Of a stretch of 4,112 nt of DNA, positions 1 through 3,000 are shown piece after piece. Position numbers: made by a program. The stretch comes from a virus (Duplodnaviria > Heunggongvirae > Uroviricota > Caudoviricetes): IMG/VR virus record IMGVR_UViG_2690316286_000011. One strand, given 5' to 3'. Positions within the stretch are counted from its first letter, which is position 1. Each line of letters starts with the position of its first letter.

Positions 1-3000
1 CAAACTGCGATCGATTCAGATGCCATTTTGCAGTTATGGTTTTGAAGTTCGCAAAAACGGCGTATTAATCGCATCCAGAGAAACTAAAGGTGCCATTCCC
101 GGTAGTTACAGTGCAGTTATTGATATGCCTAGTGGTGGTGGTAGCGTCACTCTGGAGTTTAAGATTTTCCAGAAAGGCAATCAGGGGGCAGGCAATATCA
201 CCGACTGTACGGTGATTGTGACCAAAAAAGCGGCTTCCGGCATCAGTATTCGTTGAAATATTTATAACCCCAATAAATGGCGTCAGGAATGACGCCTTTT
301 TTATTGCAGAAAAGCGAGAGGTAATTATGCGTAAAGTTTGTGCAGCCATTTTGTCCGCAGCCATTTGCCTGGCCGTATCCGGTGCGCCTGCATGGGCGTC
401 TGAACATCAGTCCACGCTGAGCGCGGGGTATCTTCATGCCCGGACCAACGTTCCCGGCAGTGATGATCTGAACGGGATTAACGTGAAATACCGTTATGAG
501 TTTACGGATACGCTGGGGCTGGTGACGTCATTCAGCTATGCAGGAGACAAGAATCGCCAGCTGACCCGTTACAGCGATACCCGCTGGCATGAAGATTCCG
601 TGCGTAACCGCTGGTTCAGCGTGATGGCGGGGCCGTCTGTGCGCGTGAATGAATGGTTCAGCGCGTATGCGATGGCGGGTGTGGCTTACAGCCGTGTGTC
701 GACTTTTTCCGGGGATTATATCCGCGTAACTGACAATAAGGGGAAAACGCACGATGTGCTGACCGGAAGTGATGACGGTCGCCACAGCAACACGTCTCTG
801 GCGCACTGACGGTTTCATCGTGGGTGTCGGTTATAAATTCTGATTAGCCAGGTAACACAGTGTTATGACAGCCCGCCGGTTCAGGCGGGCTTTTTTGTGG
901 GGTGAATATGGCAGTAAAGATTTCAGGTGTACTGAAAGACGGCACAGGAAAACCGGTACAGAACTGCACAATCCAGCTGAAAGCAAAACGTAACAGCACC
1001 ACGGTGGTGGTGAACACGCTGGCCTCAGAAAATCCGGATGAAGCCGGGCGTTACAGCATGGACGTTGAGTACGGTCAGTACAGCGTTATTCTGTTGGTGG
1101 AAGGATTCCCGCCGTCACATGCCGGGACCATCACCGTGTATGAAGATTCCCGACCCGGTACGCTGAATGATTTTCTCGGTGCCATGACGGAGGATGATGC
1201 CCGTCCGGAGGCACTGCGCCGTTTTGAGCTGATGGTGGAAGAGGTGGCGCGTAACGCGTCCGCGGTGGCACAGAACACGGCAGCCGCGAAGAAATCAGCC
1301 AGCGATGCCAGCACATCAGCCCGTGAGGCGGCAACCCATGCGACTGATGCTGCAGATTCAGCACGTGCAGCCAGCACGTCAGCCGGACAGGCCGCTTCGT
1401 CGGCTCAGTCAGCGTCTTCCAGCGCAGGAACGGCATCAACAAAGGCCACTGAAGCCTCAAAAAGTGCTGCCGCTGCAGAGTCCTCAAAAAGCGCGGCGGC
1501 TACCAGTGCCGGTGCGGCGAAAACGTTAGAAACGAATGCGGCAGCGTCACAACAATCAGCAGCCACTTCTGCATCCACCGCGACCACGAAAGCGTCAGAA
1601 GCTGCCACCTCAGCCCGGGATGCGTCGGCTTCAAAAGAGGCGGCAAAATCATCAGAAACGAACGCATCATCAAGCGCCAGTAGCGCAGCTTCCTCGGCGA
1701 CGGCGGCTGCAAATTCTGCGAAGGCGGCCAAAACGTCCGAGACGAACGCCAGGTCTTCTGAAACGGCAGCGGGACAGAGTGCCTCAGCTGCGGCAGGCTC
1801 AAAAACAGCGGCTGCGTCGTCTGCCAGCGCCGCGTCAACAAGTGCCGGGCAGGCCTCAGCCAGTGCCACCGCCGCCGGAAAATCGGCAGAAAGCGCCGCA
1901 TCATCCGCTTCAACAGCCACAACGAAGGCTGGCAAAGCCACTGAGCAAGCCACTGCAGCAGCGAGGTCTGCTTCTGCAGCAAAAACCTCTGAAACAAATG
2001 CAAAGACTTCAGCAGACAATGCTGCTTCCTCTAAGGCAGCAGCCGCATCGTCAGCCAGTTCAGCGGCGTCATCGGCATCATCTGCGTCTGCTTCAAAAGA
2101 TGAGGCGACCAGACAAGCGTCAGCAGCGAAAGGTAGTGCCACGACAGCAACAACGAAAGCATCAGAGGCGGCAGGCAGTGCGACGGCTGCATCTCAGAGC
2201 AAAGTTGCTGCTGAATCCGCGGCAACGCGCGCCGAGACAGCAGCAAAACGGGCAGAGGATATTGCATCCGCCGTGGCGCTGGAGGATGCGAGCACGACGA
2301 AAAAGGGGATAGTACAGCTCAGCAGTGCGACCAACAGCACTTCCGAGTCACTGGCGGCAACGCCAAAAGCGGTTAAGGCGGTAATGGGTGAAACGAACAA
2401 GAAAGCGCCCTTAAATAGTCCTGCACTGACCGGAACGCCAACAACACCAACTGCGCGACAGGGAACGAATAATACCCAAATCGCAAGCACGGCTTTCGTT
2501 ATGGCTGCGATTGCCGCNNNNNNNNNNNNNNNNNNNNNNNNNNNNNNNNNNNNNNNNNNNNNNNNNNNNNNNNNNNNNNNNNNNNNNNNNNNNNNNNNNN
2601 NNNNNNNNNNNNNNNNNNNNNNNNNNNNNNNNNNNNNNNNNNNNNNNNNNNNNNNNNNNGCGGCGCTGGGCAACGACCCGAATTTTGCGACCACCATGAC
2701 TAACGCGCTTGCGGGTAAGCAACCGAAAGATGCCACTCTGACGGCGCTGGCGGGGCTTGCTACTGCGGCAGACAGGTTTCCGTATTTTACGGGGAATGAT
2801 GTCGCCAGCCTGGCAACCCTGACAAAAGTCGGGCGGGATATTCTTGCGAAATCGACCGTTGCCGCCGTTATCGAATACCTCGGTTTACAGGAAACGGTAA
2901 ATCAGGCTTCTGGCGCATTACAGAAAAACCAGAACGGCGCAGATATTCCGGGGAAAGATACCTTCACCAAAAATATTGGTGCCTGCCGCGCATATAGCTC

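What the first reader, a model, noticed from the sequence alone, without database searches (positions are those of the whole stretch)
2868..2893. DNA-invertase crossover site inside stf, at the constant/variable junction
The 26-bp sequence at 2868-2893 has the architecture of a Gin/Cin/Pin/Hin recombination site (two imperfect 12-bp inverted half-sites around a 2-bp core) and is a near match to Mu gixL as I recall it. It sits where the protein stops resembling lambda Stf (just after ...GRDILAK..EYLG) and where GC content drops from roughly 60% in the shaft to about 35-40% in sampled stretches of the C-terminal domain and tfa. In Mu (G segment), P1 (C segment) and e14 (P segment), such sites flank an invertible cassette that swaps tail-fibre C-termini and their assembly chaperones to switch host range. 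This window would then hold the left boundary of such a switch, with the stf variable part and tfa in the currently expressed orientation. The prediction is a second, inverted copy of the site, an oppositely oriented tfa'/stf' variable pair, and a serine invertase gene of about 190 codons downstream of position 4112.
Basis: partly seen in the sequence, partly recalled or inferred. Interest (0 to 1): 0.7.

Follow-up and report, generated by a model that had tools for sequence, protein, structure and literature searches.

The report
Mu-type inversion site in lambdoid tail-fibre gene
The 26-bp sequence is a genuine Mu-type (gix) DNA-inversion site at the point where a lambda-like side tail-fibre gene joins a receptor-binding tip and chaperone almost identical to phage Mu's S'/U', a well-known host-range switch and so an ordinary though correctly read feature.

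Summary
Observation confirmed. TTATCGAATACC-TC-GGTTTACAGGAA at 2868-2893 matches authentic Mu gixL/gixR at 24/26 positions; shuffled windows never do better than 7 mismatches. Similarity to lambda Stf ends at ...EYLG, and DNA homology to Mu starts at base 2868. From there the fibre tip is 98% identical to Mu S'v and the tfa fragment 97% identical to Mu U'.

The window's own contig could not be recovered, so nothing beyond 4112 was seen directly. Every relative examined beyond the right site shows the predicted arrangement: an inverted partner site about 3 kb downstream, an inverted tfa'/fibre tip, then a Gin-family recombinase gene. That gene is intact in an N15-like phage-plasmid and in P2-like prophages. 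It is cut to 64-99 codons in the chromosomal lambdoid relatives, of which the two compared base by base keep the enhancer stretch 72/72 identical to Mu gin.

Both orientations exist in E. coli: the in-silico flipped junction occurs at 100% identity over 2038 nt, in 20 genomes against 42 in the window's orientation.

Verdict: a real gix-type crossover site and a new member of a well-known kind. Interest is low.

The parts
1..256 (+). 3' end of the tail-tip gene J (context; not part of the switch)
   Evidence: Annotated gpJ lies under the match in the lambdoid relatives. Window bases 1-32 match none of them.
327..809 (+). lom (Ail/Lom outer-membrane protein), shortened to 160 aa by a 77-nt deletion (context)
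   Evidence: Pfam PF06316, E = 1.2e-95, covering profile positions 1-159 of 199. The deletion lies between CTGGCG repeats relative to L003.
908..2867 (+). Constant part of the side tail-fibre gene stf (Sc): N-terminal domain, Ala/Ser-rich shaft and the lambda-Stf-like segment ending ...GRDILAKSTVAAVIEY. Bases 2518-2659 are masked as N.
   Evidence: ORF 902-3838 is open across the site. PF08400 prophage tail fibre N-terminal domain, E = 4.9e-72. 73% identity to lambda orf-314 residues 1-66.
2864..2901 (.). Left arm of the 38-nt inverted repeat that flanks the invertible segment in relatives (it contains the 26-bp site)
   Evidence: the repeat finder pair I2 in L003: arms 10821-10858 and 13870-13907, 92% complementary, 3011 nt apart. 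The left arm differs from window 2864-2901 at none of its 38 bases (sequences).
2868..2893 (+). gix-type crossover site: outer half TTATCGAATACC, core TC, inner half GGTTTACAGGAA. It encodes (V)IEYLGLQE in the stf frame.
   Evidence: 24/26 to authentic Mu gixL/gixR. Chance excluded. Reading frame checked.
2880..2881 (+). Central dinucleotide TC, the inferred point of staggered cleavage and exchange
   Evidence: Its position in the site follows from the alignment with gix, cix and pix. In flipped relatives the outer halves stay in place and the inner DNA is swapped. Cleavage at this dinucleotide is inferred from knowledge of the family, not shown here.
2882..3838 (+). Variable, receptor-binding C-terminal part of the fibre, Mu S'v type, in the expressed orientation
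   Evidence: 313/318 aa identical to the Mu S' variable part. DNA is 95.5% identical to Mu 35037-33793, beginning at window 2868. PF12604 gp37_C.
3841..4112 (+). 5' part of tfa (tail-fibre assembly chaperone, Mu U' type); it runs off the window
   Evidence: 87/90 aa identical to Mu U'. PF02413 Caudo_TAP, a weak hit because the protein is partial.

Best explanation
Bases 2868-2893 are a functional-type recombination site for a Gin/Cin/Pin-family serine DNA invertase. It forms the left boundary of a Mu G-segment-type invertible cassette that has been grafted onto a lambdoid side tail-fibre gene.

Proposed mechanism. Two invertase dimers bind this site and an inverted partner about 3 kb downstream. 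They synapse on a Fis-bound enhancer located in the 5' end of the invertase gene, cut at the central TC, rotate and religate. The promoter, the constant 5' two-thirds of stf and the outer half-site stay in place. The inner half-site, the fibre tip and its chaperone are exchanged for the alternative pair, in frame at the Leu codon CTC of ...EYLGLQE....

In the window the Mu S'v/U' (G(-)-type) pair is in the expressed orientation.

Shown here:
- the identity of the site;
- the module boundary at the site;
- in relatives, the partner site, the opposed gene pair, the invertase gene or its remnant, the conserved enhancer stretch and both orientations.

Inferred: the cleavage chemistry, Fis dependence, and that the window's own genome carries the rest of the cassette. 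Where the adjacent invertase gene is truncated, as in the closest chromosomal lambdoid relatives, inversion would need an invertase supplied in trans by another prophage.
For: 1. Site identity. 24/26 to authentic Mu gix, with identical core, inner half and adjoining 8 nt. Shuffles never come closer than 7 mismatches.

2. Homology breakpoints converge on the site.
- From the variable side: Mu and D108 homology begins at window 2868, P88 and SfMu at 2861-2864, and IMG/VR loci at 2862-2877.
- From the constant side: other contigs, several of them lambdoid, share the constant part up to 2888 or 2908 and then carry other variable modules.
- Lambda encodes the same LEYLG peptide but has only a half-site-like TTCTTGAATACC and no inner half.

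3. Cassette in relatives. Partner site on the opposite strand about 3.0 kb away, with the same TC core, in L001-L004, L038 and L040 and in L039. An inverted tfa' and fibre C-terminus lie between the sites.

4. Invertase. Resolvase + HTH_7 proteins of 184-199 aa with the Ser9 motif, next to the right site in L039 and L001. Near-full-length Gin-like reading frames (Gin residues 1-181) lie next to a site in L021 and L054.

5. Enhancer. The stretch corresponding to P1's annotated Cin enhancer (cin nt 19-90) is 72/72 identical to Mu gin in L001, L003 and L038. In L003 the spacing from the right site is the same 54 nt as in Mu.

6. Both orientations exist.
- The flipped junction predicted from L003 occurs at 100.0% identity over 2038 nt in E. 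coli genomes: 20 genomes flipped against 42 in the window's orientation.
- PEC1003 carries the same prophage at the same locus, with identical J, Lom, Tfa and recombinase-fragment accessions but the segment inverted. The fibre ORF is intact there at 961 aa.
- L016 and L021 show the two states in what looks like the P2-like form of the cassette.
- Contig L045 has the constant part at both ends of the segment.
Against: - The window ends inside tfa and its source contig was not found. For this genome, the partner site, the alternative genes and the invertase are therefore unobserved.
- In the closest full-length chromosomal relatives the adjacent invertase gene is dead: a stop after codon 64, then a deletion.
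- The window's prophage shows decay (lom deletion).
- The outer half-site differs from Mu gix at two positions whose effect on binding is untested.
- Orientation differences between genomes do not by themselves prove site-specific exchange. Any crossover within the shared ~25-nt stretch gives the same product.
Confidence: 0.82

Rival explanations
1. Fossil joint. The site is the scar of the event that grafted a Mu-type G segment onto a lambdoid stf, but in this genome the switch is frozen. The cassette would be truncated, the partner site mutated or no invertase available, so the S'v/U' pair is permanently expressed, or the whole prophage is defective.
For: - The invertase is truncated to 64-99 codons in the chromosomal lambdoid relatives.
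- The window's lom carries a 77-nt deletion shared with decayed Shigella-type prophages.
- The window's downstream sequence is unknown.
- Only 1692 of 5426 E. coli genomes have a near-full-length gin-like gene detectable at the DNA level.
Against: - Cassettes with the same truncated invertase occur in both orientations at 100% sequence identity, at the same chromosomal locus. Inversion has therefore probably continued after the truncation.
- Where compared, these cassettes keep both sites, both fibre reading frames and the enhancer stretch.
Confidence: 0.3
2. The orientation polymorphism arises by RecA-dependent homologous recombination between the 38-nt inverted repeats, not by invertase action. 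The resemblance to gix would then be inherited with the Mu module and be functionally irrelevant here.
For: The exchange can only be localised to the ~25-nt stretch shared by both arms. The cis invertase is dead in the lambdoid chromosomal relatives.
Against: - About 25 nt of identity is at the lower limit for RecA-mediated exchange (established knowledge), and it is unlikely to give 20 flipped against 42 unflipped genomes.
- The longer 161-nt, 75% inverted repeat between the two tfa genes is not where the observed junctions lie.
- Intact invertases accompany the same sites in L039, L001, L002, L021 and L054.
- Invertase-driven flipping of such prophage cassettes has been measured directly in E. 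coli (PMC4272514).
Confidence: 0.05
3. The 26-mer is conserved only because it encodes the conserved fibre peptide IEYLGLQE. It would be neither a recombination site nor a module boundary.
For: The site lies inside a coding region, and the outer half encodes the EYLG motif also present in lambda Stf.
Against: - Lambda encodes LEYLG with different DNA and has no inner half-site.
- The inner half plus 8 further bases are identical to Mu at every synonymous position.
- Inverted partner copies lie in non-coding DNA upstream of the invertase gene.
- Homology breakpoints cluster at the site.
Confidence: 0.01

Closest known systems
Phage Mu G segment (gixL/gixR, S/U and S'/U', Gin, sis enhancer)
   Same: - Site 24/26 identical, with the same core TC and inner half.
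- Variable fibre part 98% identical to S'v and chaperone 97% identical to U'.
- In relatives: the same gene order (tip, tfa, inverted tfa', inverted tip, right site, 54-nt spacer, invertase) and a 72/72 identical enhancer stretch.
   Different: - The constant part is a lambdoid Stf (PF08400 N-terminal domain and a long Ala/Ser shaft, downstream of J and lom), not Mu Sc. DNA homology to Mu begins only at the site.
- The outer half-site has two substitutions.
- The adjacent invertase is truncated in the chromosomal lambdoid relatives.
Phage P1/P7 C segment (cixL/cixR, Cin)
   Same: - Same architecture and position in the fibre gene.
- The P1 cixR outer half TTATCCAATACC differs from the window's outer half at 1 of 12 positions.
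- The P7 and P1 variable parts are 96% and 87% identical to the window's at the DNA level.
   Different: - The core is TT and the inner half is GGTTTAAGAGAA.
- P1/P7 homology to the window starts 17-22 nt after the site ends, at 2910-2915.
e14 P segment (pix, PinE) of E. coli K-12, a lambdoid-element precedent, and lambdoid phage LLS
   Same: An invertible fibre tip and chaperone cassette with an adjacent serine invertase in a lambdoid element. e14 inversion has been seen directly by sequencing and PCR (PMC4272514). LLS is reported to have opposed side-tail-fibre genes plus an invertase (PMC12315714).
   Different: The pix sites (CTCTCGAAAACC TT GGTTTGGGAGAA and TTTTCATAAACG TT GGTTTGGGAGAA) are 8 or more mismatches from gix, and the e14 modules are unrelated in sequence to the window's.
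P2-like E. coli prophages with a Mu-type cassette (e.g. O103:H2 12009, O169:H41 2014EL-1345-2)
   Same: Identical left site, and 97.5-97.9% DNA identity to window 2660-4112, including the last ~200 nt of the constant part. They carry an intact 199-aa invertase.
   Different: They are myovirus baseplate-fibre (H-type) genes in a P2 tail cluster. The window has the lambda J-lom-stf context.

Membership tests
[quoted passage not shown] | A 26-bp site made of two imperfect 12-bp inverted half-sites around a 2-bp core | tested here: met
   TTATCGAATACC / TC / GGTTTACAGGAA, with 7/12 symmetric positions; by eye, Mu gix gives the same count. The 26-bp definition is taken from PMC3798978.
[quoted passage not shown] | Sequence match to an experimentally defined site, beyond chance | tested here: met
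   24/26 to Mu gixL and gixR read from AF083977. 0 of 200 shuffles within 3 mismatches. The best shuffle is 7 mismatches away.
[quoted passage not shown] | A partner site in inverted orientation on the same molecule, with an identical core dinucleotide | not testable with these tools
   The window ends at 4112 and its contig was not found. The feature is met in relatives L001-L004, L038, L039 and L040: the partner lies about 3.0 kb away and the core is TC in both sites.
[quoted passage not shown] | An adjacent gene for a small serine recombinase (Resolvase catalytic domain plus C-terminal HTH) | not testable with these tools
   Not visible in the window. In relatives it is intact in L039 (184 aa) and L001 (199 aa), with PF00239 + PF02796 and Ser9 conserved. 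Near-full-length Gin-like reading frames lie next to a site in L021 and L054. It is truncated to 64-99 codons in the lambdoid L003, L004, L038, L040, L053 and L055.
[quoted passage not shown] | A recombinational enhancer (two Fis sites) in cis, inside the 5' end of the invertase gene | tested here: inconclusive
   In relatives L001, L003 and L038 the stretch homologous to P1's annotated enhancer (cin nt 19-90) is 72/72 identical to Mu gin. Fis binding and the window's own copy could not be tested.
[quoted passage not shown] | The segment is found in both orientations, with the exchange at the site | tested here: met
   Met in relatives, not in the window's own genome. The predicted flipped junction occurs at 100% identity over 2038 nt: 20 genomes flipped against 42 unflipped. 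L003 and L038 are the same prophage at the same locus in opposite orientations. L016 versus L021.
Invertible tail-fibre host-range cassette (Mu G / P1 C type) | The site lies in frame at the constant/variable junction, so each orientation gives a complete fibre ORF followed by its own chaperone gene | tested here: met
   Window ORF 902-3838 is open across the site and tfa starts at 3841. In the flipped relative L038 the ORF 6153-9038 is intact at 961 aa and is followed by the other tfa.
Invertible tail-fibre host-range cassette (Mu G / P1 C type) | The variable part and chaperone are homologous to known switchable modules | tested here: met
   313/318 aa to Mu S'v and 87/90 aa to Mu U'.
Lambda-type side tail fibre (Stf) | Encoded after J and lom, with the prophage tail-fibre N-terminal domain and the Stf-like segment ...GRDILAK..EYLG | tested here: met
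   Gene order. PF08400, E = 4.9e-72. 73% identity over 66 aa to lambda orf-314, ending at EYLG.

The most novel reading that the evidence does not exclude
In the chromosomal lambdoid relatives the cassette is an orphan. The invertase gene is cut to 64 codons, yet both crossover sites, both fibre/chaperone reading frames and the enhancer stretch inside the gene remnant are kept. The cassette also occurs in both orientations at 100% sequence identity.

This would mean that the host-range switch of one prophage is maintained and driven in trans by the invertase of a different co-resident prophage (P2-like, Mu-like or e14). That would be a dependency between unrelated prophages, with the remnant kept for its enhancer and not for its protein.
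Probability: 0.4. Interest if true: 0.4.

Novelty: new member of a known kind. Interest (0 to 1): 0.2.

Why it matters
It matters mainly for annotation.

- The junction explains why this stf is a mosaic: a lambda-like shaft with a Mu S' tip.
- It predicts that the fibre's receptor specificity can alternate. The expressed tip is the Mu G(-) type, which in Mu is linked to infection of E. coli C, Citrobacter, Enterobacter, Erwinia and Shigella sonnei but not K-12 (PMC4406740).
- It warns that assemblies can break, or be misannotated as pseudogenes, at this point. PGAP calls the flipped fibre gene 'incomplete' although the ORF is intact.

The one modestly interesting point is that the lambdoid chromosomal versions appear to flip without an invertase of their own. 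That is in line with the known cross-reactivity of Gin, Cin, Pin and Hin (established knowledge) and makes cross-talk between prophages testable.

Tried and rejected
**1. Recovering the window's own contig.**
- Exact 80-mer from the 3' end and a 117-mer upstream of the N-run against genome contigs: no hit.
- 60-mer from the 5' end against viral and metagenome contigs: no hit.
- Look-up of the 160-aa Lom returned Shigella-sonnei-type loci. These match the window only at 33-2379 and carry a different fibre tip and tfa, so they were rejected as the source.
- IMG/VR contigs that are 100% identical to window 33-1873 end inside the stf repeats.
- Complete E. coli genomes reach at most about 95% identity over the whole window.

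**2. Trans-acting invertase.** I could not test whether the specific genomes with truncated cassettes (for example 63-2 and PEC1003) hold an intact invertase elsewhere, because the tools cannot query a single genome. Only the collection-wide figure was obtained.

**3. Literature.** The classic papers were not held: Plasterk & van de Putte 1985, Sandmeier 1992 and Mehta 2004, and a PMC id I guessed for Johnson's review. Statements on cross-complementation therefore rest on established knowledge.

**4. Chance or coding-constraint explanation.** Considered and rejected.
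Full report
**What is in the window.** The window is the tail end of a lambdoid prophage. It holds the 3' end of J, a lom gene (327-809), a long side tail-fibre gene stf (ORF 902-3838, ATG at 908, with 2518-2659 masked as N) and the first 90 codons of tfa (3841-4112). 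The sequence TTATCGAATACCTCGGTTTACAGGAA is at 2868-2893 as reported.

**Is it a gix-like site, and is it more than chance?** I read the real sites from phage Mu (AF083977). Both gixL and gixR are TTATCCAAAACC-TC-GGTTTACAGGAA.
- The window site matches at 24/26. Both differences (positions 6 and 9) are in the outer half, on the constant side.
- The core TC, the inner half and the next 8 nt (ACGGTAAA) are identical to Mu.
- No dinucleotide-preserving shuffle of the window comes within 3 mismatches. In 200 further shuffles the best match has 7-12 mismatches, and the next-best real position in the window has 10.
- P1 cixR (TTATCCAATACC-TT-GGTTTAAGAGAA), cixL and the two e14 pix sites have the same layout but are more distant. 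The window's outer half differs from P1 cixR's outer half at one position.
- Half-site symmetry is 7/12; by eye, Mu gix gives the same count.

**Is it at a junction?** Yes, on three counts.
- *Protein.* Window Stf matches lambda orf-314 at 73% over 66 aa, and the match stops at EYLG. Lambda DNA at those codons is TTCTTGAATACC-TT-GGGGCCGGTGAG. That is an outer-half look-alike forced by the shared peptide, with no inner half, and lambda has no gix-like 26-mer even at 8 mismatches.
- *DNA, variable side.* Homology to Mu and D108 begins at window 2868, to P88 and SfMu at 2861-2864, and to several IMG/VR contigs at 2862-2877. From there the window is 95.5% identical to Mu's G segment read in the G(-) sense. 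The fibre tip is 313/318 aa identical to S'v and the chaperone fragment 87/90 to U'.
- *DNA, constant side.* Other contigs, several of them lambdoid, share the window's constant part up to 2888 or 2908 and then continue with different tips.

GC content is 58.0% in the shaft and 59.6% just before the site. It is 47.3% in the tip and 39.0% in tfa.

**What lies downstream?** I could not recover the window's own contig. Loci found through the Lom protein are Shigella-sonnei-type prophages that diverge from the window after 2379. The evidence below therefore comes from relatives.

*Chromosomal lambdoid prophages* matching the whole window at 94-95% were examined in E. coli 63-2, C2 and O114:H49 90-9280.
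- Their gene order is J, lom, stf, tfa, an inverted tfa', an inverted fibre C-terminus of 279-334 codons, then a 'recombinase family protein' of only 195 nt and tfa remnants, at the prophage end.
- The partner site TTATCTAAAACC-TC-GGTTTACAGGAA lies on the opposite strand 3.0 kb from the left site, inside a 38-nt, 92% inverted repeat.
- In L003 the recombinase gene matches Mu gin almost perfectly for about 190 nt. It then meets a stop after codon 64 and is deleted.
- The stretch equivalent to P1's annotated Cin enhancer (cin nt 19-90) is 72/72 identical to Mu gin in L003 and L038. In L003 the 54-nt spacing from the right site is also the same as in Mu.

*An intact version exists in a lambda-tailed element.* The N15-like phage-plasmid pZ1323HEC0355-3 is 93.6% identical to the window. 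It has J, lom, stf, tfa, inverted tfa', an inverted tip, the right site TTCGCAAAAACC-TC-GGTTTACAGGAA and a 184-aa Resolvase + HTH_7 protein.

*P2-like prophages* carry the same left site and a module 97.5-97.9% identical to the window's, with an intact 199-aa Gin-like invertase.

**Does it invert?** From L003 I built the sequence expected after exchange at the core.
- It occurs at 100.0% identity over all 2038 nt in several complete E. coli genomes. In all, 20 genomes carry the flipped form and 42 the window's orientation.
- Strain PEC1003 has the same prophage at the same bio-proximal locus as strain 63-2, with identical protein accessions for J, Lom, both Tfa proteins and the 64-aa recombinase fragment, but with the segment inverted.
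- The outer half-sites stay in place, and the fibre ORF is intact in the flipped state at 961 aa, although PGAP labels it incomplete.
- The two states are also seen in L016 and L021, which look like the P2-like form of the cassette.
- Contig L045 has the constant part at both ends of the segment. That pattern is expected from an assembler when both orientations are present in the reads, or from a duplication.
- Because both orientations share the identical truncated gene, the simplest reading is that inversion continued after the truncation, using an invertase supplied in trans. Gin-like genes covering at least 80% of gin are detectable at the DNA level in 1692 of 5426 E. coli genomes. I could not check the individual genomes, and a crossover anywhere in the shared ~25 nt would give the same product. 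Homologous recombination therefore cannot be formally excluded.

**Mechanism.** This is the established model for the family, inferred here and not shown. Two 26-bp sites and an enhancer of about 60 bp inside the invertase gene, bound by Fis, assemble an invertasome. The serine recombinase cuts at the central 2 bp, a subunit pair rotates, and the ends are religated (PMC3798978). In this locus the core TC forms positions 2-3 of the Leu codon in ...IEYLGLQE..., so either tip is joined in frame. In Mu, the S'/U' pair confers the G(-) host range: E. coli C, Citrobacter, Enterobacter, Serratia, Erwinia and Shigella sonnei. The S/U pair confers infection of K-12 (PMC4406740).

**Comparison with what is known, and novelty.** Invertible fibre cassettes are classical in Mu, P1/P7 and p15B, and in the lambdoid element e14.
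- e14 inversion has been measured directly by sequencing (PMC4272514).
- A three-repeat P2-like variant giving four arrangements is described in the same paper.
- A lambdoid phage, LLS, with opposed side-tail-fibre genes and an invertase was reported in 2025 (PMC12315714).

The window's locus is thus a further member: a lambdoid Stf shaft carrying the Mu G module at a gix site. The only feature that I did not find described is the apparently trans-driven, invertase-less form that retains the enhancer.

**Verdict.** This is a new member of a known kind, and interest is low (0.2).

Noticed in passing
window 327-809 (deletion joint at about 798-803): lom is shortened to 160 aa by a 77-nt deletion between CTGGCG direct repeats, relative to E. 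coli 63-2. The same deletion is present in Shigella-sonnei-type prophages and is listed in 1212 blocks of the protein-to-contig index.
   Followed up: partly
window 2518-2659: The masked N-run is 142 nt, but L001-L004 and several IMG/VR relatives have only 49 nt between the flanking matches. The window therefore either carries 93 extra in-frame bases (31 codons) here, or the mask does not preserve length.
   Followed up: partly
window 1-32: The first 32 bases, inside the J 3' region, match none of the relatives. Every alignment starts at position 33 or later. This could be a divergent J tip or a junction.
   Followed up: no
L025 1-5611 (IMGVR_UViG_2693429557_000008): This locus has three gix-like sites (1-26 +, 2953-2978 -, 4944-4969 -), a short extra fragment of the constant part (matched at 2979-3143) and a 201-aa ORF in the invertase position (5006-5611). 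It looks like a multi-inversion variant of the kind reported for a P2-like prophage with three inverted repeats. The contig starts exactly at the first base of the site.
   Followed up: partly
L039 (NZ_CP148365.1, pZ1323HEC0355-3), whole record: A 45.9-kb N15-like phage-plasmid (protelomerase, SopAB, CyRepA1) has lambda-type tail genes and a complete stf inversion cassette with an intact 184-aa invertase that is only about 55% identical to Gin.
   Followed up: partly
L003 13958-14152 and L038 11159-11353: The invertase remnant is 64 codons long and keeps the enhancer-equivalent stretch 72/72 identical to Mu gin. After the stop, about 50 nt resemble e14 pin more than gin, which suggests a mosaic invertase before the deletion.
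   Followed up: partly
L038 6159-8549 (NZ_CP160643.1): PGAP annotates the flipped-orientation fibre gene as 'incomplete; missing C-terminus', although a continuous 961-aa ORF (6153-9038) spans the site. This looks like an annotation artefact at the inversion junction.
   Followed up: yes
L045 (IMGVR_UViG_2568526230_000001, 4110 nt): The contig consists of the invertible segment with the constant part of the fibre gene at both ends in inverted orientation, and both sites have the constant-type outer half. This is either a signature of mixed orientations in the sequenced culture or a duplication.
   Followed up: partly
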